A program made the position numbers and the translations under genes. The notes under the pieces were generated by a model that saw only the letters and a program-made list of their open reading frames with translations, searched no databases and had not been told where the DNA came from. A DNA stretch of 64,000 bases from Dehalococcoidia bacterium (GTDB lineage: Bacteria > Chloroflexota > Dehalococcoidia > Lucifugimonadales > UBA3495), in NCBI GenBank assembly GCA_965199995.1, contig OZ241328.1, forward strand, positions 524,316-588,315, given 5' to 3'. Each line of letters starts with the position of its first letter. Position 1 is the stretch's first letter. This document shows positions 13,823 to 54,990 of this stretch, one piece after another.

Positions 13823-14913
13823 CAGTTGCCGTTTACGTCCATTATGGCGGCTTGGCACATCGAAGCGCCTTGCAGAACTTCGGCTATCAGCGCCGTTTCC
13901 CAAGTAGTATGGAAGGAACGGACGCCGATACCGACAGGCAAGGCGACGATTCCTCGCTCAATGAACACATTGGCGTCGGAGCCGCCGCCGGAGGCTTCCA
14001 GCACCGGGGCGAGGCCAAGAGGTTCGAGGGCCCGGCCAATGGAAGCCACAGTTTCGTGTTGCGGCTCGACTCGATAGGCTTGGTAGGTGTTGCGAATGGC
14101 GAGTTCGATGCGGGCGTCAGGGTAGCGAGCGGCGGTCTCATCGAATACTTTGCGGAATTGGCCTTCCAGCCAGGACAATTTGTCGTTGCTGCGGCTTCGG
14201 AATTCGCCATCCAGAGAGGCGCGCTCGGGGATGATGTTGCGCTTGAGGCCGCCTTCCAGCCAGCCGATGTTGGCGGTAGTCTCGGAGTCTATGCGGCCAA
14301 GGGGCAGGCGGGTGAGGATGTCGGCGGTTACCAAGAGAGCGGACAGCCCGTTTTCCGGCTCTAGGCCGGCGTGGGCGGCGCGGCCCACGATTTCGGCGGT
14401 CACGACGTTTTGGGACGGGGCCGATACAATGACGCGGTTGGGAGGGCCTTCGCCGTCGAACACGATTCCGGATTTGGCGGTCAACCGGCTGAAGTCCATA
14501 TTACGCACGCCGACTAGTCCGCCTTCCTCGTGGCGGGAAAAGGCGACTTCGACGGCGCGGTGCGTACCGCCGGACTCGGCGACGCCGGCTAGGGCCTCCA
14601 ATACGATGGCGACGCCGGCCTTGCAATCGCCGCCGAGAATGGTTGTGCCATCGGAGCGCAGGGTGTCGCCATCCAGTTGCGGCTGGATGCCCCGTCCCGG
14701 CTCAACGGTGTCGAGATGGGCGGACAGCAGCAAAGGCTGGCCCACCCCTTCAAGCCGGGCGATGATGTTGTTGTAGGAGTCATGCTCGACGGTCAGGCCG
14801 AGGGCCGATAGACGGGCGCTTACCGCCTGGTCTATGGCGTCTTCCTCCCCGCTGGGACTGTCTATCCTGATGAGGTCAATCAGCGTTTCTATAAGGCGTT
14901 GACGGTCTGGCAT
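13822..14913 (-). CDS. M20-family metallopeptidase (PepT-like)
   Basis: ATG at 14913 with an AAGGAG RBS. HLDTVEPG, GGDCKAG and HEEGG metal/catalytic motifs. Confidence 0.8.
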   Translation of the reverse strand: MPDRQRLIETLIDLIRIDSPSGEEDAIDQAVSARLSALGLTVEHDSYNNIIARLEGVGQPLLLSAHLDTVEPGRGIQPQLDGDTLRSDGTTILGGDCKAGVAIVLEALAGVAESGGTHRAVEVAFSRHEEGGLVGVRNMDFSRLTAKSGIVFDGEGPPNRVIVSAPSQNVVTAEIVGRAAHAGLEPENGLSALLVTADILTRLPLGRIDSETTANIGWLEGGLKRNIIPERASLDGEFRSRSNDKLSWLEGQFRKVFDETAARYPDARIELAIRNTYQAYRVEPQHETVASIGRALEPLGLAPVLEASGGGSDANVFIERGIVALPVGIGVRSFHTTWETALIAEVLQGASMCQAAIMDVNGN

Positions 14914-15038
14914 GGCGCTGCTCCTTGCTGTTGGATGGATTGGGTTCCCGCTCTCCGTTTTCACGGGGACAATCTTCGCGTGGAGGACTCTTTCGGGATA
15001 CCGACAAGTTCAGCCCTTGCTATTGGATTCCCGCTTTC

Positions 15039-15240
15039 GCGGGAATGACGGTGTGGTAGGCGGGAATGACGGTGTGGTAGGCGGGAATGATGGTGTGGTA
15101 GGCGGGAATGACGGTGTGGTAGGCGGGAATGACGGTGTGGTAGGCGGGAATGACGGTGTGGTAGGCGGGAATGACGGTGTGGTAGGCGGGAATGACGGTG
15201 TGGTAGGCGGGAATGACGGTGTGGTAGGCGGGAATGACGG
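15039..15240. repeat. 21-bp tandem repeat, ~9.7 copies (unit gcgggaatgacggtgtggtag)
   Basis: Nine full units starting at 15039, one with a C>T variant (15081-15101), plus a partial tenth. The array is contiguous with the REP hairpin at 15025-15050. Confidence 0.95.
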
Positions 15241-15306
15241 TGGCGGGCGGGAATCCCGTGATGGATTGGGAATGACATGGGAGAATCGGAATCACCTTTT
15301 GGCGGG

Positions 15307-18300
15307 TTATGGGCTGCGAATGCGAGCGAAACCTAGTATGTCGGTGTGCTTCCTGATGTAAGGAGTTCTGCTTTCGTCCGGGAATCCCAAGACTAAAATG
15401 GTATAGTCCGACGGTTCGCCTAGAGCCGCCGGGAAAGGAAACTCGACGGTGAAGGTCCGGGTTTCCGGGTAGTAGTTGTGCGTGGATGCTGCGGCGTCTG
15501 CCGGGTTTAGAATCCAATTGTCGCCCGGAAGGATGGAGCCGACGTACCCCCCGCCGTCCGCGGAGTATATCGTGAAATTGGAGTAATACAGCCCCTCGCT
15601 GGACGGGTTTTTGAGATTCACATCTTGGAATACCGCATCGCCCAGCAGCTTTCCTTCCAGCTTCACGGTACGTCCGTTGTATACGGGAAATTGCAGCCAT
15701 TCTACCAGACCATGATTCCGGTACGCCCCGGCATCGTCATAGGGGCGGTTCTCCGGCGCGTTCAGTCTGCCGGACCAGTGCTTATTGATGATGGCAGTCT
15801 GGCCGTGGAATGCCTGCCGTATCTCGGAGATGCCGGGGGGATCGTCTGGGTCCTCGGCTTCGAGAGACAGTTGATAAAGCTGGCGCAACCTTTGCTCGAA
15901 TTCGGCCTGGCCCATTGTTTCGAGCAGTTCCTGAAACAGCAACTGGCCCAAGTAATAATTGCAGTAGAATTGCGCGCTGTCCCTGCCAGGGTCAAGGGTT
16001 GCCAGCGTTTGCAAGTCTGGGGTTTCGCAGTCTTGCCGGTTGGCTTGCAACAGCCCGGGGCTTAATCCCGCTTCGACGCCGTAGATATGCTCGGTGACGT
16101 TGGCTAGGCCTTCGTCAATCCAGTCTGCGTTTCTTCGCCAGAAATAATGGGAGACTTCGTGGGTGACGCCCGACCGGAAGAGGTGCCTGCCGAGGGGGGT
16201 CTCATCGCTTTCCATCTCGGGAAGGTAGCTGAAGGCGAAGCCGAAGTTTACGCCGGCGGCTCCGCTGAAGACCGCGTGTTGGTTCAGCACTACAATCACG
16301 TGGCTTACGGTCAGCGGTAACTGCATCATCCCTTCGACTAATTCCACTGCGTCCCGCACGATCTTTGGGGTGCCAGGCTGAGGTTGTGTTCCGGTGCGGA
16401 CGATGCTGATTTTCAGGTCGGGGGAGCGGGTAGTTCCGGCGGAGACGGATTGGACTTTTGCGTAGCCGGGGTTGAGGAGGCGCTGGACTTCCTGGCGGTT
16501 CTTGAGGGTGCCGGCTGCCGCTACCAGGGTAGTCTGGGCGTCGGTGAATCCCATCTGCCCCTCCGGAGTATCCATCAGGGCGGACAGCAGGCCGTCATAC
16601 TCCAGGCTTTTCATAGCCTGCACCGCCAGCAGGTCATCGTATTCCAGGGATTCCAGGAAGGGCATGGCGATGATTTTTCTTACCGCATCGGGGTCATCAA
16701 GGGCGATCCAGTGCAAGTGCTTTAAAGTTTCTTCTTCCGACTCCGTGATGTCGTCTTGCACCCAGGGCAGGTTCAAGGCGTTTCTCAGATTGTCGAGGTC
16801 GTTGGCGCCTATGTAGAGCAGATCGTCTATATTCTCGCGCTCGCTTTCGGTCAGGCCGTCCGTAGCCCAGGGGAAGGACTGAATTTGCTCGTAGAGGTCG
16901 GGGTGTTGGCCTTTCAGCCATCGGGTGTTCTGAGTGTCGTATTGGGAGAACTCCATTGCGCCGGGCGCCAGTGTCGGCGCGGGCGTTGTTTCAGGCATGG
17001 CAGCGGGCGTTGCTGTCGGCATAGGCGTTGGTTCGGGCGTGGCGATGCGGGGAGTAGGCGATGGTGTAGCTGCCGGAGTAGGCGGCAATACCGGTGCTGG
17101 AGTCGGCATAGGCGAGAGCATTGCCGGGGAAGATAGAATGTCAATGGCCGAAAGGGTCTCCGAATCGCCGCACTGGTTGGCGTTACTATCCCAAACCGCC
17201 GGCGTCTCTACCGCCAGCACCAGGTTGCGGTAATTTTTCAGGCTGGGGCCATTCAGCTTGACCGTCGCCTCAAAAATTCCGTCGGCTGTCGTGCGTTGGC
17301 TGGTGACTTCCGCGAAGGTCGATTCGGTCCAGAATCTGCCGCTGGGCAACAAAGGGCTTATGAGGTCAATGTAATGGTAGCTGCCCGCGCTGTATTCATA
17401 TAGATGGAATTGGCCACAGTATCCATCCTGATAAGTTAGCCGTACAGCGCCGGGGGAAGCCTGGCCGGCAAATTGCATCGTGTCGCCGGTTATCGCAGGC
17501 GGAACAGACCACTGGATGGCGTTCAAATGATAGTGTTCGACTACTTTGAGGCCCTCCGGTATCCGGCCGGACACGACAGGAATCTCCGAGAAGGTCTCGC
17601 TGGGAAGGCAGAATCCATCCGGCCCGAGCCCGACGCGGCTTTCTAATGTCAGATGAAGGTTTCCGGCCTCCGCTAGGGACTTATGGTTGATTCGGGCGGT
17701 TATGCTGAATTGGCCCGTAGCCGGGTTAATCCGGCCATTTATGACGGCTGCCCCGGGGATTTCGTGATAATACCAGCCTACCAGCAGAGGCTCTGCAACG
17801 CCGGCTGCCCAGTCCCGTTGACCGCTGCCCCGATACAGTTGGAACTGGGAGCAGTAGGGATTGTCCTTCAGGATGAATTCCTCCAGCAGGCTAGGACTGC
17901 TGATTTCGCCGGCGAAGTGCAGGTATTCGCCGTCTATTGTGGGAGGGAAAGTCCAGGTCACGCTGCCGGATTGCCGGTCGTTTGCTACCGGCGTGGATGT
18001 TGGCGCTGGAGTGGGGGTAGCAGGGGGTGCCGGAGTCGGCTTTGAGGTTTGCGCCGGAACGGGCGGGGACGTCGGCGTCGCTACATTAGCCGCTAGCTGT
18101 GGCTTGGCGCTGGGCGTAGCGGTGTTTGCAGGAGGGGCGGGGGTGTCCTCGGGAGCCGGATTCGTTGGTGTTGCCGTGGCTACAACAGTAACGGTAACTG
18201 CCTCCGGCGGGGCGGTCGCAGCGTCATTGGCCGGTTGCGGAGCGTCGTCGGCGCAGGCGGTCAACACAGCCGCCAGACTGAATAACACCGCCAATGCCAG

Positions 18301-19610: not shown

Positions 19611-19662
19611 TCCTTGGGGCAAAGAACCCTTGGGGCAAAGAACCCTTGGGGCAAAGAACCCT
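19611..19662. repeat. 16-bp tandem repeat x ~3.2 (cccttggggcaaagaa)
   Basis: Units at 19611, 19627 and 19643 plus a partial unit, immediately upstream of an extended -10 (TGCTATACT, 19664-19672). Confidence 0.9.
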
Positions 19663-31464: not shown

Positions 31465-33030
31465 TCACTCTATTTCAGGCTGCTCCAACCCGGTAAGCCG
31501 GTACAACAGCTCCATGTCTAGGCTGTTGCGAACGGTCTGGGCCAGCTTGTCGTATTCGCCGTCGCGGGACAGTTGTCCGCCGGTGTCGGTGGGGGGGGGG
31601 AGTTCCGCGCCTTTCCAGCCGGCCAGTTGCTCCAGCAGGGCTCGGCGCAGGGCGTAGCTGTTGAACAGGCCGTGGACGTAGGTGCCCAGGGCGCGGCCGT
31701 TGGCGGAAATTACTCCGTCGTCCGCCGCCGGCTGACCGGCGCGGCTGATTCGGAAAGGACGCGCAGCTTCGCCGACAGGAGCGGACGAGCCCATGTGAAT
31801 CTCGTAGCCTTCCAGGGCGGCGCTCCCTGCTTGCGCCAGGAGACCGGTGTCCGAGGAAACCAAGCCGCGCACGCGATGAGTTTCCTTGACCGGCGCGAAG
31901 ACCGTATCCACGGGCAGCAAATCTAGGCCGGCGGCTTCCGGGTCCGGGGATTCCACGCCCTCCGGGTCTAGGATGCGGCGGCCCATCATCTGGTAGCCGC
32001 CGCAGATGCCGATGACCGGAGTTCCGCCATCGGCCTGCCGCTGGATTTCCGAGGCGAAGCCGCGCTCGCGGAGCCACCATAGGTCGGCCATGGTGGTCTT
32101 GGTGCCGGGAAGGATAATCAAATCCGGCTCGCCCAGGCTGTCGCGGCTCTCCACATAGCGCAGGCGGACGCCCGGCTCCCGCTGCAGGGGGTCGAAGTCG
32201 TCGAAGTTGGATATGTGGGGGAGGCCCATCACGGCTATGTCCAGCACATGGCCGGTCTGGGATTTCATATCCTGCCGACGCTCCAGAGACACGGAGTCTT
32301 CCTCGGCGATTTCGATGTCGCGGTAGTAGGGAACCACGCCCAAGACCGGCTTGCCGGTGCGTCCTTCCAGCCAGACCAATCCGGGCTCCAGCAATGAAAT
32401 GTCCCCCCGGAACTTGTTGATGATGAAGGCGCCCACCGCGTCCCGTTCCTGCGAGTCCAGTATCTCCATGGTGCCGAGCAAAGAGGCAAACACGCCGCCG
32501 CGGTCTATGTCTCCCGTGAGCAACACTGGGGCGCTGGAATGCAAGGCCACTCGCATATTGACGATTTCGTTCTGCTTGAGGTTTATTTCCGCCGGGCTGC
32601 CCGCGCCCTCGATGACTACTACGTCGTATTGCGACCGCAAAGTATCTAGGGAATTGGCGACCCTCTCCCAGAGCATGGGCTTGGCGGAGGTGAAGTAGCG
32701 GGCCGTCGCCCGGGCCGCAGGCTTGCCCAGCAAAACAACCTGGGAGCTATGGTCTGCTTCGGGTTTCAGCAGGATGGGGTTCATTTCCACTGTCGGCTCA
32801 ATTCCGCAGGCCTCGGCTTGCACCGCCTGAGCCCGGCCCAGCTCGCCGCCGGAGGGGGTTACGAAGGAATTGTTGGACATATTCTGGGCCTTGAACGGGG
32901 CAACGCGGTAGCCGTCTTGGCGGAAGATGCGGCACAGTGCGGTCACCAGCACGCTCTTGCCTACATGAGAGGCAGTGCCTTGCACCATCACCACGCGGCC
33001 TTGAGGGGCGAGAGCGGAACGAGTTTGCAA
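31465..33030 (-). CDS. cobQ: cobyric acid synthase
   Basis: 521 aa. VMVQGTASHVGKS P-loop and a C-terminal glutamine amidotransferase region (ICGGYQMMG). Confidence 0.9.
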   Translation of the reverse strand: MQTRSALAPQGRVVMVQGTASHVGKSVLVTALCRIFRQDGYRVAPFKAQNMSNNSFVTPSGGELGRAQAVQAEACGIEPTVEMNPILLKPEADHSSQVVLLGKPAARATARYFTSAKPMLWERVANSLDTLRSQYDVVVIEGAGSPAEINLKQNEIVNMRVALHSSAPVLLTGDIDRGGVFASLLGTMEILDSQERDAVGAFIINKFRGDISLLEPGLVWLEGRTGKPVLGVVPYYRDIEIAEEDSVSLERRQDMKSQTGHVLDIAVMGLPHISNFDDFDPLQREPGVRLRYVESRDSLGEPDLIILPGTKTTMADLWWLRERGFASEIQRQADGGTPVIGICGGYQMMGRRILDPEGVESPDPEAAGLDLLPVDTVFAPVKETHRVRGLVSSDTGLLAQAGSAALEGYEIHMGSSAPVGEAARPFRISRAGQPAADDGVISANGRALGTYVHGLFNSYALRRALLEQLAGWKGAELPPPTDTGGQLSRDGEYDKLAQTVRNSLDMELLYRLTGLEQPEIE

Positions 33031-35382: not shown

Positions 35383-37908
35383 TCAGGCTTTGTAGACCCC
35401 ATTTAGACTAGCAAGGACTTGATCAAATTTAACGCCCCCAAACACGAGGCGGAAGGTGCCTTTGGCCGGGCCGTCGTTGATGGTCATTGTGCCGGCGTTG
35501 AAGGCGCGTTCCAAAGTCTCGAATACTTTCTTTTTATACTGCGTGTCGTCGTTGCCCTTGAGATGCTCGCCTTTGGTCTCGAATACCAGAATATGCGGTT
35601 TGCCGGTGGTGTCGCCAGCCATAGCCACAAAATCAGGCCAGATGCGTTCCCGTTTCCATCCCCGCAGATAATAGTCTCCTTGCTGGCGCACGGCCACCCG
35701 GTGCCACCAGTGCAGCGCCTTTTGCTCGTCCAGATAACGGGCGAAATTCCTCTCCAGGTCGCTATCGAAATGACGGGCCAGCACTGGCTCGAACAGCGAA
35801 ATTTGTAACGGCTTTCCATAGCTCTGCAAAGCGGATTCGTCTACGCTTACGGGGATTTCATAACTTTCCCGTACTTTGAAGCTGTGGTCGTTGGACTCCA
35901 GGTCGAAGCTGATTTCTCTCTGGCTAAGTTTGTCCAGGAAAATCTTTTCTGACAGATTTTCCACCTTTTCAGACACATGATCCCGCAATGACGCTGCCAG
36001 GTTGCCGCGCTGGTCGTAGATGGCATCACCGGTCATGCCGCCCCTGCGCCGATGATCTACCAACTCTGTCGCGATGCGGGCAGCCTGCCACGGATTAGGC
36101 ACTATGTCGGCCAGACGGCGGGCGAACCAGGATATGCAGACGGTTTTGTCAATGTAAATTTCCCGCTCAGGATGATAAACCTCTTGCTGGCCCCCGACGT
36201 CCACTGTGGCCGATTGTTGCCGGGCAGCCTGGTCCAGCCCACCGTGCGTTTCGGGGATGCCAATAGAGGCCCAATTGATATGCGGCAGTATGTGTTGCTG
36301 ATAATCCAGTTCGCGCCAGCCATCCCCATCCCGGTGATTGACCCTCGGCAAAAATATCTTCTGGCCCCGGAACTTTTTTCTACGCTCTAATTTTGTGCGC
36401 TGGAAATCCCCGGATTCTGAGACAACGTCATCTCCCAATCCGGTCATCCCTTCCTGCTCCAGCCCGTTCTTGACCTGCTTTACCGCAACCCCTACATCGG
36501 TGTTCCAGCAGTAGACATAGCACTGGTCCAGGGCTTCGCGCCCGGTGCGGCGGGCATGGGGCTGCCGCATCACCCGGCCCACTAGCTGGGTGATGGCGCG
36601 CTGCGCCGAGGTGTTGTCCAGCATCACCAGAACGTAGGCAAAGGGGCAATCCCAGCCTTCCATCAGGGCGGCGCGGGTGATTATCCATCGCACCGGCGAA
36701 TACTCCGACAGCAGGTCTTTGCGGCCCAGCTCGTCGTTTTCCGCCGACTTTACCAGTACCTGCTCGGCAGGAACACCCAGGTTTAGTGTCAGATACTGGC
36801 GCACGTCCTCGGCGTGAACCCGCTCGCCGTCCCGCTGGTCTTTGCCGGTGCGCTCCACTCGCACCACAGCGATGGGGCGGATGTAGCGGCCTTCGTTCGC
36901 TTCCAGCGACATCGCTTCGGCGGCGACGCGCTCCAGTTCTTCATGCGCCTGCCCCAAGGTGTACTGCCATTCGGCGCCAGGGAAGGTAGTTACCTGCACG
37001 GGCAGCTTTATCATTTCTTCGTCTTTCAGTTCGACGCCGGTGATGTCCACCAGCAGATTGCTGATGCGATGGTTGGGCGTGGCTGACAACTCTATGACCA
37101 TTTGCGGATTCAGACGGTTGACCGACTGGACGAACTCGCTGGCGTCATTGGCCCGGCCATAGGCTTTATGCGCTTCGTCGAGCACTACCACGGGACGCAT
37201 CATCTTGAAGACATTAAACAGGCTGTGCTTGACCTGCCCGCCCTCAGATGTTCGCTCCAAGTCTGGGTGTTGCTCCAGCAGGCGGCCGTCGCCCAAAGCG
37301 TCGTCGCTATCGGGAAACAGCGTCGGGTAGCGGCCCGAATCGTGGAACATCCGCAAAAACTCCCGGCCTTTCTGCCGGTTAGCGGCGGGCAGCATCAGCA
37401 GCATCACGCACAGATAGTTGTTGACATCGCCGAGGTTGAAAGGCGTTTCCTTTTCCAGCAGTTTGACGCGCCCGCCGCTGGCCCGCTCCAGCATCTGCCG
37501 GTAAGGATGTTCCCGGTTCTTGAGGGCTTCCCAAGTCTGCTGGTAGATGGCCTTAGTGGGCGTTATCCACAGCGTGAGGCTGGTAGGCCGATTCAGCCGT
37601 TCCAGCGCCGCGGCGGCCAGCAGAGTCTTGCCCCCGCCGGTGGGAACCTTGAAGCAGACGTGGGGGATGGGGCGCCCGGCCCCGTCGGTTCGCTCCACGT
37701 AGTCTTGAGACGGATTGGCTACCTCGCCGGCCTCGGCCAGCTTCTGCCAAGCGGCGCGGGGATAGTTGCGAACCTCGGAAGGCGCATCTAATCCGGCCTG
37801 TCGCAAAGCGGCGATACCGGCTTCGCTCTGCTCCTGCGCCGTTTCCAGCGCGCTCAGCCAGCGGCCAAAGGCGTCAAGGGCCTTACGCTGATACTCTTTC
37901 AGTTCCAA
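35383..37908 (-). CDS. res: Type III restriction enzyme Res subunit (SF2 helicase plus C-terminal PD-(D/E)XK nuclease)
   Basis: 841 aa. Walker A VPTGGGKT, DEAH box (VVLDEAHK), C-terminal PDFVAM...LVFETKGEH. It lies downstream of mod on the same strand. Confidence 0.85.
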   Translation of the reverse strand: MELKEYQRKALDAFGRWLSALETAQEQSEAGIAALRQAGLDAPSEVRNYPRAAWQKLAEAGEVANPSQDYVERTDGAGRPIPHVCFKVPTGGGKTLLAAAALERLNRPTSLTLWITPTKAIYQQTWEALKNREHPYRQMLERASGGRVKLLEKETPFNLGDVNNYLCVMLLMLPAANRQKGREFLRMFHDSGRYPTLFPDSDDALGDGRLLEQHPDLERTSEGGQVKHSLFNVFKMMRPVVVLDEAHKAYGRANDASEFVQSVNRLNPQMVIELSATPNHRISNLLVDITGVELKDEEMIKLPVQVTTFPGAEWQYTLGQAHEELERVAAEAMSLEANEGRYIRPIAVVRVERTGKDQRDGERVHAEDVRQYLTLNLGVPAEQVLVKSAENDELGRKDLLSEYSPVRWIITRAALMEGWDCPFAYVLVMLDNTSAQRAITQLVGRVMRQPHARRTGREALDQCYVYCWNTDVGVAVKQVKNGLEQEGMTGLGDDVVSESGDFQRTKLERRKKFRGQKIFLPRVNHRDGDGWRELDYQQHILPHINWASIGIPETHGGLDQAARQQSATVDVGGQQEVYHPEREIYIDKTVCISWFARRLADIVPNPWQAARIATELVDHRRRGGMTGDAIYDQRGNLAASLRDHVSEKVENLSEKIFLDKLSQREISFDLESNDHSFKVRESYEIPVSVDESALQSYGKPLQISLFEPVLARHFDSDLERNFARYLDEQKALHWWHRVAVRQQGDYYLRGWKRERIWPDFVAMAGDTTGKPHILVFETKGEHLKGNDDTQYKKKVFETLERAFNAGTMTINDGPAKGTFRLVFGGVKFDQVLASLNGVYKA

Positions 37909-37952
37909 TGCCGCCCCTGGATATTCTCAAAGTGCGCCGGTAATAGGACCGC

Positions 37953-38270
37953 CGCTCTCTCCCAATCATTGTCCGCCGCTCCTCGTCATTCCCGCGAAAG
38001 CGGGAATCTACGCTACTAACCTGCGAAAGATAGTATCTGCCCAAGTTCCTGGATTCCCGCTCCTCGTTTTCAAGGGGACAAGCTTTGCGGGAATGACGGG
38101 CACGCCGTCTGTCATCCCCCGTCGCTCTCTCCCAATCATTGTCCGCCGCCCCTCGTCATTCCCGCGAAAGCGGGAATCTACGCTACTAACCTGCGAAAGA
38201 TAGTATCTGCCCAAGTTCCTGTATTCCCGCTCCCCGTTTTCAAGGGGACAAGCTTTGCGGGAATGATGGG
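37953..38270. repeat. tandem duplication (period 170 bp) of a composite REP/MITE-like element between mod and res
   Basis: Copy 1 is at 37953-38100 and copy 2 at 38123-38270, with only a few mismatches. Each contains ttcccgcgaaagcgggaa and cccgctcc(c/t)cgttttcaaggggacaagctttgcggg hairpins. Confidence 0.9.
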
Positions 38271-38280: not shown

Positions 38281-40166
38281 CTATCTGCTGCGGGCTGTGT
38301 GGATTTCGTAGGGCAGTTGGCAGAAGGTGATGCCCATGCTGGTAAGCTCGCGCTGGCCGATGTACTTATCAGGGGCGAACACGATGGCTCCCTTGCCCTC
38401 GGCGCGGGCCGCCTTGCTGATGCTATGGGAGCGTTCTTGGTTCAGGGTTGCCTCGTTACTCCGCAGGTAATCCAGGTCGGGTTCATAGAACAGGTGATAG
38501 TTGTTCTTGCCGCTGCTGTAAAACAATCGGTCGCTCCCCTGGGGCCTCAACTTCCCTCTGCTTACGGATATGCCAGAGACAGTATGCACCAGATAGGCGG
38601 CCAGTTGGTCAAAGGAGGGCAGGGCCTCTCCGGTCAGCATACCTTCTAAGTCGATGGGTTCGCCTAGGGTGCAATAGGTGAAGGAGCCGCCCAGTCCCTC
38701 CCGCAACGCGGGGTCGCGGGCCCCCGGCACTCCGTTGATGACGCGGCGGACGCGCTCGGCGGTGATACTATCGGCGTAGTCTTCGCACTCGACGAGGATG
38801 AACTGGCGGTTGCCGCCGTCTTCCTGGTTCAGCGCGAGGACGGCGTGGGCCGTGGTGCCGCTGCCAGCGAAAGAATCGAGGACGATGTCGTTGTGGCCTG
38901 GTGCGCCGATCCTCAATAAATCCGACATCAAAGCAACTGCTTTGGGGTAGGGGAACCTTTCGTTAGCATCGTATAATATTTGAGAAAGTGTTTGTCCTCC
39001 AGCACGGCTACTATATTCGGCCTTGTAAAAGACTGATTTAGGTTTTTCTGTAGGTAAATCGCCGAGCTGAGGGCGTTGCTTTGAATATATTGCCATGCTA
39101 CCGTCCCTGCGTTGCTGAGCGAACACGTCGCTCGGGTTTTCACGCACTCTGGCTTTGCTCCAACGCCATATCGCCCGTGCCTCTCCGTTGCGAACCCTTG
39201 GGTTCACTGTAGTGAACGGTCCCCCAATATCTGGCTCTTCGTCATCGTTCGTGATGTGGACCGCTCCATCAGGACCCACAAAAATCGGGTAGTCAAGCGA
39301 CTCTGAGTACGTCAAACTACCGCGTTGCAGTAACTCTGGTTTGTAATACCCGGTGTCATCGCGGTGCCATTCTTCAAGAGCATTCCCTTGAACGGGAAAC
39401 CGTCCTAGATTTACTTCATTACGGTTTTTGGCGTACACCAAGCAATGCTCGTGGGCGCCGGCGAAACCAAATTGGTCGCTGCTACCCGCCAGATTTGCCA
39501 CGACGGCTAGATTAGCGATGAAGCTCGCCGCCCCCCAAACGTCGTCCATCATCATGCGCAGATGGTGCTGTTCGTTATCGTCGATGGAGACGAAAATGAC
39601 GCCATCGTCAGCAAGCAACTCTTTGAGCAGTTGCAGGCGGGGCCACATCATACAGAGCCACTTGTCGTGGCGTTCTAGGTCTTCGGTGTCAACGATTTGA
39701 TTCAGCCACTCCCTCATCAGGGGGCTGTTCACCTTGTCGTTATAGGCCCAGCCTTCATTGCCGGTGTTATAGGGCGGGTCGATGTAGATGCACTTGACGC
39801 GGTTGGCGTAGCGAGGAAGGAGGGCTTTGAGGGCGTGGAGGTTGTCGCCGTGGATGATGAGGTTACCGTCGGGCAGAACGGAATTAGAACTATCGTTCAG
39901 CTCTCTCTCTCTCTCTCTCTCGACATATGTTCTAATATCGACTTATCCGGGTGGGGAATCAGCGGACGGTGAGGAATAGTGAGGTGGTGGGCGTAGACAG
40001 TCTGCTTACCTTTGAACTCCAGGGAAGGCAAAGCACATCTCTCCGGCGGGTTGATGGAGTGTATACTACACCCCTCCGCGACAATTTTCATCATTGCATA
40101 TAGAGACCCCAGCAACTGCCGGGGCCGTTGTGGTTTGCGGAGAGGCCAGGGGTTAGGTCGAGTCAT
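38281..40166 (-). pseudogene. mod: Type III R-M Mod (beta-class N6-adenine methyltransferase) split by a (GA)10 tract; phase-OFF frameshift
   Basis: The downstream frame carries IIHGDNLHALKALLPRYANRVKCIYIDPPYNTG ... DSFAGSGTT and is open up to 39942 with no start codon. The upstream 89-codon ORF (ATG 40166) ends at TGA 39899-39897, directly after the tract. Removing 2 nt fuses them into 627 aa. Confidence 0.8.
39901..39921 (-). repeat. dinucleotide simple-sequence repeat, (GA)10G on the coding strand of mod
   Basis: The plus strand reads ctctctctctctctctctctc, located at the junction of the two mod reading frames. Confidence 0.97.
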
Positions 40167-40626
40167 CCTCCGGCGGGAGCAGATCTTCGAGGGGTATGCC
40201 TGTTTGCTGGGAAATCAAGGCCATACGCGCCTTCTGCCTCTTCCGCTCTTCGGCAAGGCCCTCAGCGTGGCCTTCAGCGCGACCCTCAGCGCGACCCTCA
40301 GCATGGCCTTCGACCCGGCCCTCGGCAAAGCCCTCGACCCGGCCCACAGCGCGGCCCACAGCTCTTGCCTCGGCCTCTATTTTCGCTCGCCTTTTCTGTC
40401 TTTGTTCCAGGGCCCAAAATACCATGTCCACACCTCTCTCTGCCAGTACGGCAAACATCCCGTAGATGACAACGGCCAGATCCACGAGGCTCGCCGCCGC
40501 TTCTAGTCTCTCCCATCCGCCCCATTGGCCCGACCTCTCTAATAGCAACAAGGTGACCACGAAAACCCCGAAGGGCGCTGCTATAGCGTGAAGCCTAAGC
40601 CATTTCATTCCCAGCCACTCTCCCAT
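40153..40626 (-). CDS. hypothetical two-TM membrane protein with a C-terminal (A/V)EG(R/H)-type repeat
   Basis: The start is probably M36 (40626). TM segments are AIAAPFGVFVVTLLLL and LVDLAVVIYGMFAVLA. Repeat: VGRVEGFAEGRVEGHAEGRAEGRAEGHAEGLAE. It overlaps the mod upstream ORF by 14 nt. Confidence 0.4.
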   Translation of the reverse strand: MGEWLGMKWLRLHAIAAPFGVFVVTLLLLERSGQWGGWERLEAAASLVDLAVVIYGMFAVLAERGVDMVFWALEQRQKRRAKIEAEARAVGRAVGRVEGFAEGRVEGHAEGRAEGRAEGHAEGLAEERKRQKARMALISQQTGIPLEDLLPPEDDST

Positions 40627-40684
40627 CCTGTTTTCTATCTTATCTATAAGATATAGGCCCCGGCAACTTCTGGAGCCTCTAAGT

Positions 40685-41131
40685 TCAGGACAGGGGCTGC
40701 TGGCTGAACGCGCCGCCCCCGGTGTATTCATCGGGGAGAAAGCCCCACAGAATTTCTAGCAAGGGAACTATCTCTTCCAGCGCAATTTCTGTTGTCCTCT
40801 GGGTCATATAGATTTCGCAGAACTGAACGTGCAGTCCCTCAGCTATTATTAGCCTGCGGTAAATTCCCCGTTCCAAGTCAGGATTTTCGTCGGCTAACGC
40901 TAAGACGCACTCCCGGATAGCTACGTGGTCGTAGTGGTTCTACCCCTTCAAGGTTGCCGCGGCCTTGGTTAGCTGAGCTACGGTTCCCCACCCCTTTTCG
41001 GCGGCTTTGCATATATCCTGTTCGCGCAGGTGTTCAGAGCCTTTAGCCCAGTACTCTTTTGCTTGGGCCACCTGCTTTCGGAGGCGCTGTTCGCGGCGTT
41101 CTAGGTTTTCACGGAAGGGTCTGGGGGCATT
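40685..41131 (-). pseudogene. PaREP1-family-like gene remnant (in-frame TAG plus N-terminal frameshift)
   Basis: Hand translation: ...AKEYWAKGSEHLREQDICKAAEKGWGTVAQLTKAAATLKG*NHYDHVAIRECVLALADENPDLERGIYRRLIIAEGLHVQFCEIYM... The TAG at 40942-40940 sits where a Trp is expected. The ATG at 41131 is in another frame. Confidence 0.45.
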
Positions 41132-50095: not shown

Positions 50096-50153
50096 AAGCC
50101 AACCGAGAGGAGTATAAACAGCGCCGGTATTATATCCGAAAAGCGTCCTCTTT

Positions 50154-50830
50154 CCCGGACGTTATTGGCCCGGACGTTATTGGCCCGGACGTTATTGGCC
50201 CGGACGTTATTGGCCCGGACGTTATTGGCCCGGACGTTATTGGCCCGGACGTTATTGGCCCGGACGTTATTGGCCCGGACGTTATTGGCCCGGACGTTAT
50301 TGGCCCGGACGTTATTGGCCCGGACGTTATTGGCCCGGACGTTATTGGCCCGGACGTTATTGGCCCGGACGTTATTGGCCCGGACGTTATTGGCCCGGAC
50401 GTTATTGGCCCGGACGTTATTGGCCCGGACGTTATTGGCCCGGACGTTATTGGCCCGGACGTTATTGGCCCGGACGTTATTGGCCCGGACGTTATTGGCC
50501 CGGACGTTATTGGCCCGGACGTTATTGGCCCGGACGTTATTGGCCCGGACGTTATTGGCCCGGACGTTATTGGCCCGGACGTTATTGGCCCGGACGTTAT
50601 TGGCCCGGACGTTATTGGCCCGGACGTTATTGGCCCGGACGTTATTGGCCCGGACGTTATTGGCCCGGACGTTATTGGCCCGGACGTTATTGGCCCGGAC
50701 GTTATTGGCCCGGACGTTATTGGCCCGGACGTTATTGGCCCGGACGTTATTGGCCCGGACGTTATTGGCCCGGACGTTATTGGCCCGGACGTTATTGGCC
50801 CGGACGTTATTGGCCCGGACGTTATTGGAC
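50154..50830. repeat. perfect 15-bp tandem array, 44 full units plus partial ends (~45 copies; unit gttattggcccggac)
   Basis: Eleven consecutive 60-nt lines (50161-50820) are identical, each holding four units. The array is intergenic between divergent genes. Confidence 0.97.
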
Positions 50831-50857
50831 AGATAGAGTAATCGAGGAGGCCCATAT

Positions 50858-51250
50858 TTGTCTGGCGGCGATAATTCCCCTTTCCTGCGTTTCGTTGGCA
50901 TTGAAGAAGGTCTGTCGGAGAAGGGCGTAGGCAGCGTTTCGATGGCAATTCAGCCCCATCACCTTCAGGCCGCCGGTCAGGTTCACGGCGGGCTGATGGC
51001 GGTTCTGGTGGATACTGCCTTTTTCCGCGCCGTCCGCTCCACACTGGCGCCGAATCAGCGTACCACCACTGTCGAGCTGAAGGTGAATTTCCTGGAGAGC
51101 GCGAGCTCCGGCTGCCTCACCGCCACTGCCAGGATAATCGGCAGCAGTAACCGCCTGACGGTTGCGGACGTTGAAGTCGTCTCGGACGATGGCCGGCTTG
51201 TAGCTCAGGGCCTCGGAACATTCCTTGTTATGAACGGGGAAAGCGGCTGA
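50858..51250 (+). CDS. PaaI-family (hotdog fold) thioesterase
   Basis: 130 aa. TTG start with a GAGGAGG RBS at 50844-50850. HHLQAAGQVHGGLMAVLVDTA motif. Confidence 0.75.
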   Translation: MSGGDNSPFLRFVGIEEGLSEKGVGSVSMAIQPHHLQAAGQVHGGLMAVLVDTAFFRAVRSTLAPNQRTTTVELKVNFLESASSGCLTATARIIGSSNRLTVADVEVVSDDGRLVAQGLGTFLVMNGESG

Positions 51251-51312: not shown

Positions 51313-52842
51313 CTACTCGGTTACCCCCCGCGCCCGGTATTGCAGGGCTTCTGCGAGATGGGCAACGCCGATGGTATCCGCGCCGGCAAGGTCAGCGATA
51401 GTGCGCGAGACTTTCAGCACCCGGTGGAATGCCCGGGCCGATAGATTGAGGCGCTGGGCAGCGGTATGGAGCAGGCTTTTTGCCCCATCTTCCAGCGAAC
51501 AGTGTTGCGTGACTTCTGCCGGCCCCATTTCCGAGTTGCAGAGGAACCCGCCGCCCTTAAAACGCTCGCGCTGCACTTCCCGCGCCTGCTCTACTCGCTG
51601 GCGAGGGTAGCTGGAGTCTTCGGCGGGGCGGTGTTCCACCAGTTTCTCATACTCCACCGGGGGGACTTCGACGAACACGTCCACCCGGTCCATCAGCGGC
51701 CCGCTGATTTTCCTCTGGTAACGGGCAACGGAAGACGGATTGCAGGTGCATTCCTTGACCGGGTGGCTGTGAAAACCGCAAGGGCAGGGGTTCATGGCGG
51801 CCACCATCATAAAGCTGGCGGGATAGGTAACGCTGCCCGTGACGCGGCTGATGGTCACTACCTTGTCTTCCAGCGGCTGACGTAGGGACTCCAGCGCGGC
51901 ATGGTTGAACTCAGGCAACTCATCGAGGAACAGCACTCCGCGATGGCTCAGCGTGATTTCGCCGGGGCGCAGGGTGCGGCCGCCGCCCACCAGACCGGCG
52001 TTGGAGATGGTGTAGTGGGGCGAACGGAAGGGACGTTGTAGCATCAAGGGGTTCTCGCTCTGGAGGCCGCCGTTGACGCTATATATCTTGGTGACTTCCA
52101 AGGCTTCCTGTGGGGCCATGCGCGGCAGAATTGAAGGAAGGCAACGAGCAAGCAGGGTTTTGCCGCTGCCCGGAGGGCCGCTGAACAGCAGGTTGTGGAA
52201 CCCAGCGGCGGCGACTTCCAGCGCCCGCTTGGCGTGGTCTTGGCCGCGGATATGAGCCAAGTCCATCGGGTCGTTCACCCGCGGCAGATCCGAGCATCTG
52301 GTCCATCCGTCTCCCTGCATCGGTTGCAGCAGGGCGTCTCCCCGCAGGTGCCGCACCACGGAGTCCAGCGTTGCGGCGGGGTAAACTGTGATGTCTTCCA
52401 CCAGCGAGGCTTCTTCGGCGTTCATCTCTGGCACGAAAACCGAATCGTAGCCTTGGTCGCGGGCGACCGACGCCATGGCGAGAATCCCGTTGGTGTGGCG
52501 CAGGCTGCCGTCCAGCGACAGCTCGCCCAGGAAAACAGCCCCGGCGGGCGCCGATTCGAGCTGGCCGGAGCTCAGCAGGATGCCGATGGCAATGGGCAGG
52601 TCGTAGGCTGGTCCTTCCTTCTTCAAGTCTGCCGGGGCTAGGTTGACGGTGATGCGCCGCATGGGAAACTCGCAGCCGCTGTTGCGCAGGGCGGCGCGAA
52701 CCCGCTCCTTGGACTCCTGGACTGCCGTGTCCGCTAGTCCCACCATGTTGAACTTGGGAAGCCCTGGGGAAAGGTCTACCTCGACCCTGATGATGAATCC
52801 TTCCAGTCCTACCGTAGCGCAGGAATTGGTGCAGGCTAACAC
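51313..52842 (-). CDS. comM: YifB/ComM-family Mg-chelatase-like AAA ATPase
   Basis: 509 aa. N-terminal Lon-like domain, GPPGSGKT and VLFLDELPEF. Confidence 0.9.
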   Translation of the reverse strand: MLACTNSCATVGLEGFIIRVEVDLSPGLPKFNMVGLADTAVQESKERVRAALRNSGCEFPMRRITVNLAPADLKKEGPAYDLPIAIGILLSSGQLESAPAGAVFLGELSLDGSLRHTNGILAMASVARDQGYDSVFVPEMNAEEASLVEDITVYPAATLDSVVRHLRGDALLQPMQGDGWTRCSDLPRVNDPMDLAHIRGQDHAKRALEVAAAGFHNLLFSGPPGSGKTLLARCLPSILPRMAPQEALEVTKIYSVNGGLQSENPLMLQRPFRSPHYTISNAGLVGGGRTLRPGEITLSHRGVLFLDELPEFNHAALESLRQPLEDKVVTISRVTGSVTYPASFMMVAAMNPCPCGFHSHPVKECTCNPSSVARYQRKISGPLMDRVDVFVEVPPVEYEKLVEHRPAEDSSYPRQRVEQAREVQRERFKGGGFLCNSEMGPAEVTQHCSLEDGAKSLLHTAAQRLNLSARAFHRVLKVSRTIADLAGADTIGVAHLAEALQYRARGVTE

Positions 52843-53024
52843 GCGCTCCTCCCTTTGCTCTCTTGACTAGCCCCGCACTTTCGCTACCGGACAGCGGGGA
52901 GGCGAGCTGTAGGTTTGTCCGGTACTCGGCTCCCCTGAACTATATTGCGCTAGAACATATTTTCGCAAGAGGCAGTTGTCATAAATTTGGGGGGGGGTAG
53001 TTATTGCTCTTATACCAAAGGGTT

Positions 53025-53128: not shown

Positions 53129-54877
53129 TTACTGCGTTTCGGGAGCGCTGACGCGGACGGTGATGATGTCGGTATCATGATATTGCTGGTGCTTTACCGA
53201 CGAGGCGAAGCTGCGCAGCAACAGGAGAGAAAGCTCGTTTTCTGCCGGCTCTTGAGTGTCATGTTGCTGGAGCTGGCGGACTTGGTCTTCTATATTGCCT
53301 TCTCCGCCGCCGCCAATAAACTCCAGGTCCGCTACATTGCCATCGCCAGAGGCAATGACGACCAGTTGACGCTGCTGTTCGGGATTTTCGCTGGTATCGG
53401 ACCCGTCGAGGTTCAGCGGGGCTAGGGTTAACAGGGTCTCTTCCGCTACTGCGCTCAAGCGCTCCTTCATGGCGTCGTTCCATCCCCGGCGCGCCGCAAA
53501 TCTGGAGATAAACTCATTGAGAGCCGGCAGGGTGTCTATATGGAGCTTCGAGGTGAAGCGCATCCCCCGAGGATTGGTGTACTCCAGATACAGAATCATG
53601 ACCACTATGGCCACGCCCCCGGTGGTTATTCCGCTCTTTAGTAGTGTTCCCCACACCGACCCTTCGTCGGGCAATGAGAACAGTCCGAACTGGAAAGCCG
53701 CGCCAATCCAGAAACATACCCCTGCTAGAAGGACTCTTTGTCGGTTTTGCTCACTCTGTATGACCGTCCGCGCCCCTTCAACAAACAGTCCGCCCGATAG
53801 TACTATTAGGTATCCCGCGATGACCGGGCCCGGAATAGTGCTGAGCAACCCGGAAATTTTGGGGAGAAGGGCGACCACGATTAACAGGGCGCCCATGCAA
53901 TAGCCGACTCTGCGAGAGGCTACTCCGGTGGTCTGCGTGTAAGAGACAGTGCCAGGATTGACGATGTTGGGCACTGCGCTGGCGATGCTGGCTAGAAGAT
54001 TAGTAACTCCGGTGCCGGCCAACGCCCCCTGCACCTGACGAAAGTCAACGGCCCGCTGGTCTCGCCACGCCACCCGCTGCTGGGTGATGGCTTCTCCGTT
54101 GCACTGGATGGAAATCACCACGCCGAGAAACAGGAAAGCCGGAAGCAACGTCCAGAAGGAGACGCCGAAATCCAGGCCCAGCCCGGGCCATGAGGAGGGA
54201 AAACCAAACCAGGGCGCCTTAATCACTGCTTCGGAGTCATAGAATCCGAACCCGGCGGCCACGGCGCAGCCGATAATCAAGCCTATCACCGGGCCCCACA
54301 GGCGAAGTATGGCTGAACCCCGAAGTATGAGAGCGGCAATAACGCCCAGGGTAATCAGCGCGGTGATCGGCCCTCCCACCGGTTCCTCCGGCACGTCCTG
54401 CATCAGTCGTGGAACTACCGAGGCAAGGGTAATGGACAGTATCATCAACACCGTGCCGCCCACTGTGGGCGTCACGATTCTGCGGAGGATGAACAGCCAG
54501 CGGGAGATGACCAGTTGTAGCCCTGCGGAAACGAGAACCAAGGCAGTCAGCGTAGCCGGCCCCCCGTCCACTACCGCTGAGATACAGAACGGTATGGAAA
54601 AGGCGGCAGTGAACATGGGCAGGACTGCCCCGGCGCCGATGGGGCCGATGCGCCGCACCTGGATAAAGGTGGACAGACCGCAGACCACCAAGGAGGCGAA
54701 GACCATCCATATCAGGTAGGAGTCATCCCTTCCGGATGCCTTTGCGACTACCACAGGGGTTACCAGCAAGGTAACCGAGGCCACGAGGCTGAACTGGGCC
54801 CCATAGCCGAGGGAGGCCATAAGAGGAGGGTTTTCGTGGGCCTCGTATTGGGGGTTCTGTGAAGGCGATGATGCCAA
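53129..54877 (-). CDS. NCS2/SLC23-like nucleobase permease with a ~150-aa cytoplasmic C-terminal domain
   Basis: 582 aa. About 12 hydrophobic segments are followed by a soluble domain (FISRFAARRGWNDAMKERL...). The family call is by overall resemblance only. Confidence 0.5.
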   Translation of the reverse strand: MASSPSQNPQYEAHENPPLMASLGYGAQFSLVASVTLLVTPVVVAKASGRDDSYLIWMVFASLVVCGLSTFIQVRRIGPIGAGAVLPMFTAAFSIPFCISAVVDGGPATLTALVLVSAGLQLVISRWLFILRRIVTPTVGGTVLMILSITLASVVPRLMQDVPEEPVGGPITALITLGVIAALILRGSAILRLWGPVIGLIIGCAVAAGFGFYDSEAVIKAPWFGFPSSWPGLGLDFGVSFWTLLPAFLFLGVVISIQCNGEAITQQRVAWRDQRAVDFRQVQGALAGTGVTNLLASIASAVPNIVNPGTVSYTQTTGVASRRVGYCMGALLIVVALLPKISGLLSTIPGPVIAGYLIVLSGGLFVEGARTVIQSEQNRQRVLLAGVCFWIGAAFQFGLFSLPDEGSVWGTLLKSGITTGGVAIVVMILYLEYTNPRGMRFTSKLHIDTLPALNEFISRFAARRGWNDAMKERLSAVAEETLLTLAPLNLDGSDTSENPEQQRQLVVIASGDGNVADLEFIGGGGEGNIEDQVRQLQQHDTQEPAENELSLLLLRSFASSVKHQQYHDTDIITVRVSAPETQ

Positions 54878-54990
54878 GACCGTCTCCCGGCCTCAATTGC
54901 TTGGGGATAGAAAATTGCTGCGAGTAATACTATAACAGAATTGCATTCTTTGCCTCAGCGTCGCGGCTGTCATAAGAATCGCGGCTGCCT

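What the first reader, a model, noticed from the sequence alone, without database searches (positions are those of the whole stretch)
39897..40166. Type III mod gene interrupted by a (GA)10 tract: candidate phase-variable methyltransferase (phasevarion) in the OFF state
Seen directly on the minus strand: an 89-codon ORF (ATG at 40166) reads ...LEFKGKQTVYA...HMSRERERES and stops at TGA 39899-39897, immediately after a 21-nt alternating GA tract (39921-39901).

The methyltransferase frame (…ERERERELNDSSNSVLPDGNLIIHGDNLHALKALLPRYANRVKCIYIDPPYNTG… DSFAGSGTT) is open from 39942 and runs through the same tract. It has no ATG, GTG or TTG until the internal GTG at 39732.

The two frames are offset so that losing one GA unit (or gaining two) gives a single 627-aa Mod. 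The upstream piece carries an LxFxGK motif at the position where, from memory, Type III Mods such as EcoP15I have LNWLGK. This supports its being the true N-terminus.

Res (35383-37908) lies downstream and needs Mod for target recognition, so the whole R-M system would switch together.

Slipped-strand mispairing at repeats inside mod is the established mechanism of phasevarions in host-adapted pathogens (Haemophilus, Neisseria, Helicobacter, Moraxella). I am not aware of it being described in a high-GC, environmental-type genome such as this one.
Basis: partly seen in the sequence, partly recalled or inferred. Interest (0 to 1): 0.85.

Follow-up and report, generated by a model that had tools for sequence, protein, structure and literature searches.

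The report
Methylase gene split by GA repeat
A DNA-methylase gene of a restriction-modification defence system is knocked out of frame by ten GA repeats, the usual mark of a gene that bacteria switch on and off at random; a sister species has the same repeat one unit longer, so the feature is real, but this kind of switch is already well known.

Summary
A perfect (GA)10G tract (window 39901-39921, minus strand) splits a Type III mod gene. The upstream frame stops at TGA 39899-39897. Losing one unit or gaining two gives a single ORF.

Three points need correcting:
- The true start is TTG 40031, not ATG 40166. Homologues begin MP[ST]L[DE]FKGK, so the ON protein is 582 aa, not 627.
- The genome is probably a Dehalococcoidia relative. 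The nearest Mod relatives come from sponge-symbiont MAGs.
- SSR-bearing Type III mod genes, including GA[n] tracts and environmental species, are already documented (Atack 2018).

New evidence:
- The syntenic ortholog in a related 2.9-Mb genome (L182) has the same tract at the same site, with (GA)11. It is also out of frame and has a different central target-recognition region.
- Other close homologues carry (AGTC)14, C9-C14 or G9-G15 in the same length-variable linker.
- 69 of 70 distant homologues have a minimal linker with no repeat.

Res (841 aa) and the rest of mod are intact.

Best reading: a slipped-strand contingency switch, caught OFF. Switching within a population and any regulon are untested. 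This is a new member of a known kind.

The parts
39901..39921 (-). (GA)10G simple-sequence repeat, read RERERE in the ON frame. It is the proposed slippage site.
   Evidence: The same tract at the same aligned position is (GA)11G in ortholog L182:4519-4541.
39897..40031 (-). True 5' part of mod: TTG start, 44 codons (MPSLEFKGKQTVYAHHLTIPHRPLIPHPDKSILEHMSRERERES), then TGA directly after the tract.
   Evidence: Homologues start MP[ST]L[DE]FKGK. The PADLOC MTase_III profiles align from residue 1 of this start. L182 starts at the aligned GTG.
38281..39942 (-). Main mod frame: 553 open codons holding NLIIHGDN, motif IV IYIDPPYNTG, the central target-recognition region, motif I DSFAGSGTT and the C-terminal domain. 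In the current frame it has no usable start before GTG 39732.
   Evidence: Pfam N6_N4_Mtase 6.9e-31. PADLOC MTase_III 1e-153. PDB Mod chains 6k0w, 7dsu and 4zcf at 1e-38 to 1e-46.
40039..40070 (-). Likely translation and transcription signals: GGAGAG (40044-40039) 7 nt before TTG, and a conserved TGTAGTATAC block (40070-40061) that resembles a -10 element.
   Evidence: Conserved in the alignment with L182. The sigma-70 consensus scan found nothing, so the promoter assignment is inference.
40032..40166 (-). They lie upstream of the conserved start and overlap the end of the neighbouring ORF 40153-40731.
   Evidence: No homologue extends here. Profile matches start at TTG 40031.
35383..37908 (-). 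res: 841 aa, TTG start, MELKEYQ..., with the helicase domain and a C-terminal PD...ETK nuclease motif. It is intact.
   Evidence: Pfam ResIII. PADLOC REase_III 4.5e-201 over residues 1-824. Homologues have the same start and the same 841-aa length.
37949..38270 (.). A 170-bp unit repeated 1.9 times, filling the mod-res spacer. It is probably an inserted REP/MITE-like element with ATTCCCGC-TTTC-GCGGGAAT hairpins.
   Evidence: TRF and sequence. The spacer is 372 nt here, against 10 nt in L182 and about 125-150 nt in L001-L003. The core motif is dispersed in the window.

Best explanation
This is a Type III restriction-modification operon (mod, then res). Its mod gene carries a GA repeat in a short, length-tolerant linker. 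The linker lies between the N-terminal LxFxGK segment and the NLIIHGDN/DPPY catalytic core.

With 10 units, the ribosome that starts at TTG 40031 meets TGA right after the tract and releases a 44-aa peptide. With 11 units it would stop at TAG three codons after the tract. No start codon serves the downstream frame before the catalytic DPPY motif, so no active Mod is made. Type III Res needs Mod to find DNA, so the whole system is silent.

Slipped-strand mispairing at replication changes the unit number. Nine or 12 units restore a 582- or 584-aa Mod, and with it methylation and restriction.

Shown here: the tract, the frames, the intact remainder of both genes, the homology of both halves, and the same tract with a different length in an orthologous locus.

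Inferred: that the length changes at high frequency within a population, and that ON-length alleles are active.
For: 1. Anatomy.
2. The upstream piece is the genuine N-terminus. Homologues of 556-586 aa start MP[ST]L[DE]FKGKQ.IYAHHL, and a full-length MTase_III profile matches from residue 1.
3. Apart from the tract the gene is undamaged. There are 553 open codons with all motifs. res is full length, like its homologues.
4. The syntenic ortholog L182 has gene order Rrf2-mod-res-ThiF-PALP-CobQ-NusA, flanks at 72-85% nt identity and ThiF at 95% aa. It keeps a perfect tract at the same site with identical TTAGAACATATGTC on its 5' side, but with 11 units.
5. L182 has an unrelated central region between conserved ends, the allele pattern known from phase-variable modA.
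6. Close homologues carry other repeats in the same linker:
- (AGTC)14 in L001
- C9 twice in L006
- C11 in L009
- G15 in L010
- G9, in frame, in L015
- C14, in frame, in L007, against C13TCC, out of frame, in L008; this is the same gene in another sample
7. Distant homologues lack this. Of 70 JGI loci where both motifs were found, 69 have a 102-126-nt linker, in frame, with no repeat.
8. The tract passes the published criterion of 5 or more dinucleotide units. GA[n] in Type III mod has precedent (PMC5909438; MmyCI (AG)12, PMC3498834).
Against: - No reads were available, so variation within a population is unobserved.
- Both GA-tract genomes are OFF. No ON-length allele of this mod exists in the 15-billion-protein collection.
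- Ten listed short-read contigs of the same species (nine starting at window 36856, one at 36269) stop inside res, so none carries this mod and they give no tract lengths.
- The homopolymer cases in homologues could be 1-nt under-calls by assemblers, because they all sit in the frame such an error would produce.
- Perfect conservation of 21 nt between genomes whose local flanks are about 88% identical is only mildly improbable, about 0.07 by my arithmetic.
- Slippage rates for GA tracts in Chloroflexota are unknown.
Confidence: 0.68

Rival explanations
1. The frameshift is an assembly or consensus error. The real tract has 9 or 12 units and the gene is an ordinary intact mod.
For: Repeats are the most error-prone sequence. 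Nine of ten out-of-frame alleles in the family sit in the same wrong frame, which could point to a systematic artefact. For the homopolymer alleles it is exactly what a 1-nt under-call gives. No ON allele of this gene is on record.
Against: - Two independent assemblies (the window and L182) both have out-of-frame GA tracts of different length.
- For a dinucleotide tract the observed state is +1 unit or -2 units from ON, not the usual -1-unit stutter.
- (AGTC)14 in L001 is also out of frame.
- Contig names such as ctg12665_61x_c and ctg6924c look like metaMDBG/HiFi assemblies. This rests on my own knowledge and was not verified. Such assemblies rarely miscall dinucleotide repeats.
- The rest of the window has long uninterrupted ORFs covering 86%.
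Confidence: 0.1
2. The gene is a fixed pseudogene, an R-M system being lost. The repeat happened to mutate once and does not switch at a useful rate.
For: - Both GA-tract orthologs are OFF.
- Related loci show real decay: an in-frame TGA in L002, frameshifts without a long repeat in L003 and L030, and a res-less C-terminally short mod in L011.
- The res-5'/mod segment is missing from every short-read assembly of the same species examined.
- A repeat element has been inserted between mod and res.
Against: - The mod frame has 553 codons with no stop or other lesion, and res has 841 intact codons.
- The tract is still perfect in two genomes whose flanks are 72-85% identical, with different lengths, which means slippage has occurred since they split.
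- Repeats recur in the same linker across the clade.
Confidence: 0.15
3. The 'OFF' genotype is expressed by recoding. Transcriptional slippage, or a -1/+2 ribosomal slip on the repeat, makes some full-length Mod, so the tract sets a level rather than acting as a switch.
For: The window, L182 and seven of eight other out-of-frame alleles all need the same shift of -1/+2. A binomial test of 9 of 10 against 0.5 gives p of about 0.02 (my arithmetic). On a GA repeat a 2-nt tRNA slip re-pairs perfectly.
Against: - There is no X XXY YYZ slippery heptamer.
- The 81 nt downstream fold no better than shuffles (z = -0.9 and +1.1).
- The stop positions after the tract are not conserved between the window and L182.
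- I know of no precedent for elongation slippage on dinucleotide repeats or for +2 frameshifting in bacteria.
- The frame bias has simpler explanations, namely deletion-biased slippage or under-calls.
Confidence: 0.05

Closest known systems
[quoted passage not shown] 2018, PMC5909438)
   Same: - An SSR lies inside the 5' part of the mod ORF.
- Length changes move the catalytic part in and out of frame.
- Alleles have conserved N- and C-terminal regions and a swapped central target-recognition region (window against L182).
- One homologue even uses AGTC[n], the H. influenzae modA1 unit.
- The tract passes the survey's criterion of 5 or more dinucleotide units.
   Different: - The host is a probable Dehalococcoidia (Chloroflexota) lineage with a 60% GC genome of about 3 Mb, not a small-genome pathogen.
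- res is intact here.
- Neither switching nor a regulon has been shown.
- The repeat sits in a defined linker, where several unrelated repeat units have arisen independently within one clade.
GA[n]/AG[n] tracts in Mycoplasma Type III mod genes, such as MmyCI of M. mycoides subsp. capri with (AG)12 (PMC3498834)
   Same: The repeat unit is the same, inside the coding region of a Type III mod, and it causes premature termination in the sequenced state (abstract seen; discussion in PMC5909438).
   Different: The Mod lineage is unrelated and the organisms have low GC. The solved Mycoplasma bovis Mod 7dsu matches only at 1.4e-43 over the core.
EcoP15I, the canonical Type III R-M system (PDB 4zcf)
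   Same: The gene order is mod then res. Mod is a beta-class N6_N4 methyltransferase with DPPY before FxGxG. Res is an SF2 helicase with a PD-ExK nuclease. The N-terminal L-x-W/F-x-G-K motif is shared across the family.
   Different: EcoP15I has no SSR and is not phase variable. Sequence similarity is limited to the core (8.4e-38, query residues 28-205). Res does not reach the PDB EcoP15I chain by sequence.

Membership tests
Type III restriction-modification system | Mod is an N6_N4 (beta-class) methyltransferase, with motif IV (DPPY) N-terminal to the target-recognition region and motif I (FxGxG) C-terminal to it. | tested here: met
   IYIDPPYNTG lies at residues 82-90 and DSFAGSGTT at 385-393 of the 582-aa restored protein (invariant columns). 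Pfam PF01555 scores 6.9e-31. PADLOC MTase_III scores 1e-153 and 1.1e-126, full length. PDB Type III Mods score 1e-38 to 1e-46.
Type III restriction-modification system | Res has an SF2 helicase domain and a C-terminal PD-(D/E)xK nuclease, and is encoded directly downstream of mod on the same strand. | tested here: met
   Pfam ResIII and DEAD match. PADLOC REase_III scores 4.5e-201 over residues 1-824. The sequence shows IWPDF...VFETKG near the C-terminus. Gene order is mod 40031-38281, then res 37908-35383.
Type III restriction-modification system | Hemi-methylation of an asymmetric 5-6-bp site, and ATP-dependent cleavage that requires Mod. | not testable with these tools
   This needs methylome or biochemical data.
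Phase-variable (SSR-switched) mod gene, by the criteria of Atack et al. 2018 | An SSR lies inside the mod ORF and is long enough to slip: 9 or more for mononucleotide, 5 or more units for dinucleotide, 3 or more units for longer repeat units. | tested here: met
   (GA)10 lies within the ORF, 110 nt after the start. The criterion is quoted.
Phase-variable (SSR-switched) mod gene, by the criteria of Atack et al. 2018 | Tract length differs between isolates or relatives carrying the same gene, giving in-frame and out-of-frame states. | tested here: inconclusive
   The length differs between orthologs (10 against 11 units), but both are out of frame and they are different species. An ON/OFF pair was seen only for a homologue's poly-C tract (L007 against L008), which could be sequencing error. 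No other allele was found.
Phase-variable (SSR-switched) mod gene, by the criteria of Atack et al. 2018 | Reversible length change at high frequency within a clonal population. | not testable with these tools
   No reads or cultures are available.
Phasevarion (phase-variable regulon) | ON/OFF methylation changes the expression of a set of genes. | not testable with these tools
   This needs methylomes and transcriptomes of ON and OFF variants. The term should not yet be applied here.

The most novel reading that the evidence does not exclude
The out-of-frame alleles may not be truly off. Nine of the ten out-of-frame alleles in this Mod clade, including both GA-tract orthologs, sit in the one frame that a +1-nt transcript insertion or a -1/+2 ribosomal slip on the repeat would correct. 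On this reading the tract acts as a recoding site that gives a low, tunable level of Mod, and so protection without full restriction, rather than a binary switch.
Probability: 0.06. Interest if true: 0.7.

Novelty: new member of a known kind. Interest (0 to 1): 0.4.

Why it matters
If the tract switches, a probable Dehalococcoidia lineage turns a whole Type III defence system on and off at random. Its relatives in sponge-symbiont communities would do the same. Those communities are dense, rich in phage, and known to be enriched in R-M systems (PMC8163846).

That would extend SSR contingency loci well beyond host-adapted pathogens. It would also give a concrete single-molecule test, because HiFi reads carry tract length and m6A state on the same molecule.

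One feature is the most publishable: unrelated repeat units (GA, AGTC, poly-C, poly-G) have arisen repeatedly in one short linker of one Mod clade, while distant relatives keep a minimal linker. Mechanistically it adds nothing new to what is known for modA-type genes.

Tried and rejected
- A look-up of the window's own truncated Mod call (P0001) found no record.
- An exact-flank pattern with a variable gap, run against JGI metagenome contigs to find other tract lengths, gave 0 hits.
- The follow-up protein scan of metagenome contigs returned only relatives at 54% identity or less. These served as background.
- A look-up of the neighbouring ThiF found the same species in many short-read assemblies. 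The ten contigs read (L171-L180) stop inside res, nine of them starting exactly at window 36856 and one at 36269, so they give no tract lengths.
- A look-up of the upstream amidohydrolase gave one contig whose ends are Illumina adapters, which is uninformative.
- A search with the 65-aa N-terminus plus linker, meant to fish peptides with other RE-repeat numbers, returned only L182's 58-aa peptide and unrelated fragments.
- Cluster look-ups gave no names or organisms.
- The sigma-70 and terminator scan found nothing useful around mod or in the mod-res spacer.
- Rfam found no family in the window.
- Folding of the sequence downstream of the tract showed no frameshift-stimulating structure.
- I rejected internal initiation as a source of active Mod, because the first start codon lies after DPPY.
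- Structure prediction was not run. Sequence evidence for family membership was already decisive.

Full report
**Observation.** On the minus strand the window reads ...GAACATATGTC-GAGAGAGAGAGAGAGAGAGAG-CTGAACGAT....
- TRF reports 39901-39921, period 2, 10.5 copies, 100% matches.
- It is the only dinucleotide run of 5 or more units in 64 kb of 59.9% GC DNA.
- A 15-nt GA pattern with up to 1 mismatch is expected 0.01 times in dinucleotide-preserving shuffles.
- The frame entering from upstream reads ...EHMSRERERES and stops at TGA 39899-39897.
- The frame carrying NLIIHGDNLHALKALLPRYANRVKCIYIDPPYNTG is open from 39942 and runs through the tract.
- That frame has no ATG, GTG or TTG until GTG 39732, which lies after the DPPY motif.
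- Deleting one GA unit or adding two gives one ORF. With 11 units the upstream frame would stop at TAG three codons after the tract, by direct reading.

**What the gene is.** The restored protein hits Pfam N6_N4_Mtase (6.9e-31) and PADLOC MTase_III profiles. One profile covers residues 1-577 against positions 1-540 of 542 (1.1e-126), and another scores 1e-153. It also hits the solved Type III Mods 6k0w, 7dsu and EcoP15I 4zcf (2.4e-46 to 8.4e-38).

The downstream ORF 37908-35383 is a full-length Type III Res:
- Pfam ResIII matches.
- PADLOC REase_III scores 4.5e-201 over residues 1-824.
- It has the same MELKEYQ start and the same 841-aa length as its homologues, with a PD...ETK motif near the C-terminus.

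**The N-terminus.** A search of 5.8 billion protein clusters gave thousands of homologues. The full-length ones are 556-586 aa and begin MP[ST]L[DE]FKGKQ.IYAHHL.VPYRPL. More distant ones begin MPTLNWIGK, the EcoP15I-like form of the motif.

The gene starts at TTG 40031-40029, 7 nt after GGAGAG, and not at ATG 40166. The ortholog L182 starts at the aligned GTG after GGAGAGG, and a TGTA..ATAC block upstream is conserved. The OFF product is a 44-aa peptide. The ON protein would be 582 aa (n=9) or 584 aa (n=12).

**Where the tract sits.** In an alignment of 36 homologues, the segment between ...KS and NLIIHGDN is the only length-variable stretch of the N-terminal region.
- Of the 120 best cluster representatives, 107 have both motifs in one frame. 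Of those, 91 have the minimal spacing of 38-39 aa.
- Eleven have 44-81 aa. Three of these contain GGGG, GGGGG or PPPPP.
- The remaining 13 failed the two-motif test. One of them (P0103) is intact and simply missed the motif pattern, so 12 are N-terminally truncated or frameshifted calls.

**Related loci.** I fetched DNA for the disrupted calls. All are broken in this same linker.
- L001 has (AGTC)14.
- L006 has C9 in each of two tandem mod copies.
- L009 has C11.
- L010 has G15.
- L008 has C13TCC and is out of frame. L007, the same gene in another sample, has C14 and is in frame.
- L002 has an in-frame TGA, and L003 has a frameshift with no long repeat.
- In a scan of GTDB species representatives, most loci have a 105-126-nt linker with no repeat (one carries only an A8 run). 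The two notable exceptions are both labelled Dehalococcoidia MAGs: L015 (G9, in frame) and L030 (G5, out of frame).
- In 78 JGI metagenome loci at 35-54% identity, both motifs were located in 70. All 70 are in frame, and 69 have a 102-126-nt linker with no repeat.
Repeats in this linker are therefore a property of the close clade, and they have arisen with several unrelated units.

**The ortholog.** The Res homologue P0136 (81% aa) led to L182, on a 2.9-Mb circular contig.
- L182 has the gene order Rrf2 - small ORFs - mod - res - ThiF - PALP - CobQ - NusA, as in the window.
- Its flanks are 72-85% identical at the nucleotide level, and ThiF is 95% identical at the protein level.
- Its mod has the same tract at the same aligned position, preceded by the same TTAGAACATATGTC, but with 11 units. 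It is also out of frame, and would be ON at 10 or 13 units.
- The central part of its mod has no nucleotide similarity to the window, while both ends do. That is the allele pattern of phase-variable modA genes.
- Its mod-res spacer is 10 nt. In the window the spacer is 372 nt, filled by a 170-bp unit repeated 1.9 times, evidently an insertion.

**Source organism.** The window's own record was not retrieved. L011 is a GTDB representative titled 'MAG: Dehalococcoidia bacterium'. It has ThiF (95% aa) and PALP (92%) downstream of a res-less, C-terminally short mod, so the window probably comes from a related Dehalococcoidia.

The nearest named Mod relatives are MAGs of Ca. Poribacteria, Ca. Spongiisociaceae, Latescibacteria and Dehalococcoidia. 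From my own knowledge, these are typical sponge-symbiont taxa. R-M systems, Type III included, are reported as enriched in sponge MAGs (PMC8163846). A sponge origin for the window itself remains inference.

**Mechanism.** The best-supported reading is a slipped-strand contingency switch caught in an OFF state. There are four reasons.
- The only lesion is the repeat.
- 553 mod codons and 841 res codons remain open.
- The tract stays perfect but changes length between two diverged genomes.
- The clade repeatedly evolves repeats in this linker.
Type III Res depends on Mod for DNA recognition, which is established for EcoP15I-type enzymes. OFF therefore silences methylation and restriction together.

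**What is missing.**
- There are no reads, so variation within a population is unobserved.
- No ON allele of this gene exists in the protein collection.
- Short-read contigs of the same species (99.5-99.9% identity) were found, and nine of the ten read start exactly at window 36856, inside res. None reaches mod. This is unexplained. It may reflect a strain-variable res-5'/mod cassette.

**Rivals.**
- Assembly error. This is unlikely for a dinucleotide tract seen out of frame in two independent assemblies with different lengths. It cannot be excluded for the homopolymer alleles, which all sit in the frame that a 1-nt under-call produces.
- Fixed pseudogene. This is plausible, given real decay in some relatives (L002, L003, L030, L011). 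It fits poorly with the intact ORFs and the perfect tract.
- Recoding. Nine of ten out-of-frame alleles share one frame, which is curious. However, there is no slippery heptamer, and the downstream RNA folds no better than shuffles.

**Comparison with what is known.** Atack et al. 2018 found SSRs in 662 of 3805 (17.4%) Type III mod genes in REBASE. Their set included environmental species (Clostridium thermocellum, Corynebacterium casei, Thermosynechococcus) and GA[n] tracts in Mycoplasma. They estimated at least 25 independent origins (PMC5909438). MmyCI has (AG)12 causing premature termination (PMC3498834). I found no paper on phase-variable R-M in sponge symbionts in the library.

The finding is therefore a new member of a known kind. 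The new parts are the host lineage and the clade-wide linker hotspot. The word 'phasevarion' is not yet justified.

**Verdict.** Confidence that this is a genuine SSR-switched mod caught OFF is about 0.68. Interest is 0.4.

Noticed in passing
window 50154-50828: A 15-bp unit is repeated 45 times with 100% identical copies. On the minus strand, inside open frame 50133-51116, it reads (PITSG)x45. This is an in-frame minisatellite that must be recent or homogenised.
   Followed up: partly
window 15039-15242: A 21-bp unit (GCGGGAATGACGGTGTGGTAG) is repeated 9.7 times at 98% identity. It reads (GNDGVVG)n in the + frame 14903-15358. It shares the GCGGGAAT hairpin core with the mod-res spacer repeat.
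   Followed up: partly
window 37949-38270: A 170-bp unit repeated 1.9 times (96% identity) fills the mod-res spacer. It carries ATTCCCGC-TTTC-GCGGGAAT hairpins. The spacer is 372 nt here and 10 nt in ortholog L182, so this is probably a REP/MITE-like insertion that may uncouple res from mod. The 8-mer core occurs 25 times in the window.
   Followed up: partly
window 36856 (inside res); loci L171-L180: Nine of ten short-read contigs of the same species (99.5-99.9% identity) begin at exactly this base, and none continues into res-5' or mod. No other copy of this mod allele exists in the protein collection. A strain-variable cassette or an assembly-graph branch could explain this, but it is unresolved.
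   Followed up: partly
family loci L001, L003, L006 (two copies), L008, L009, L010, L182 and the window, against L030: Nine of ten out-of-frame alleles have a motif-to-motif distance of 2 mod 3, meaning they all need +1 or -2 nt. This fits deletion-biased slippage, 1-nt under-calls at homopolymers, or recoding.
   Followed up: partly
L006:4885-6600 and 6774-8521; L002:2869-4587 and 4707-6470: Two mod genes lie in tandem before one res. In L006 both copies carry C9 in the linker and both are out of frame.
   Followed up: no
L011:3989-5341, and proteins P0033 and P0037-P0043 among others: A large group of Mod relatives of 446-467 aa lacks the C-terminal 110 aa or so. In L011 the gene sits at the syntenic site with no res, so it looks like an orphan derivative.
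   Followed up: no
window 31591-31600 and 52989-52997: A G10 run lies inside the cobQ-like ORF and is in frame. A G9 run lies in the gap between ORFs 51316-52866 and 53132-54892. Both are further slippage-prone tracts.
   Followed up: no
window 40153-40731 (minus strand): The ORF just upstream of mod has 12- and 36-bp repeats encoding AEGR/AEGH motifs. It has no Pfam or PADLOC hit and only weak FliH-like low-complexity matches. It is conserved at 61% aa at the same place in L182.
   Followed up: partly
L181 ends: This Logan contig is flanked by Illumina adapter sequence at both ends (CCCTACACGACGCTCTTCCGATCT... and ...AGATCGGAAGAGCACACGTCT), so its ends are library artefacts.
   Followed up: yes
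window 19612-19662: A perfect 16-bp unit repeated 3.2 times (CCTTGGGGCAAAGAAC) lies in an intergenic gap.
   Followed up: no
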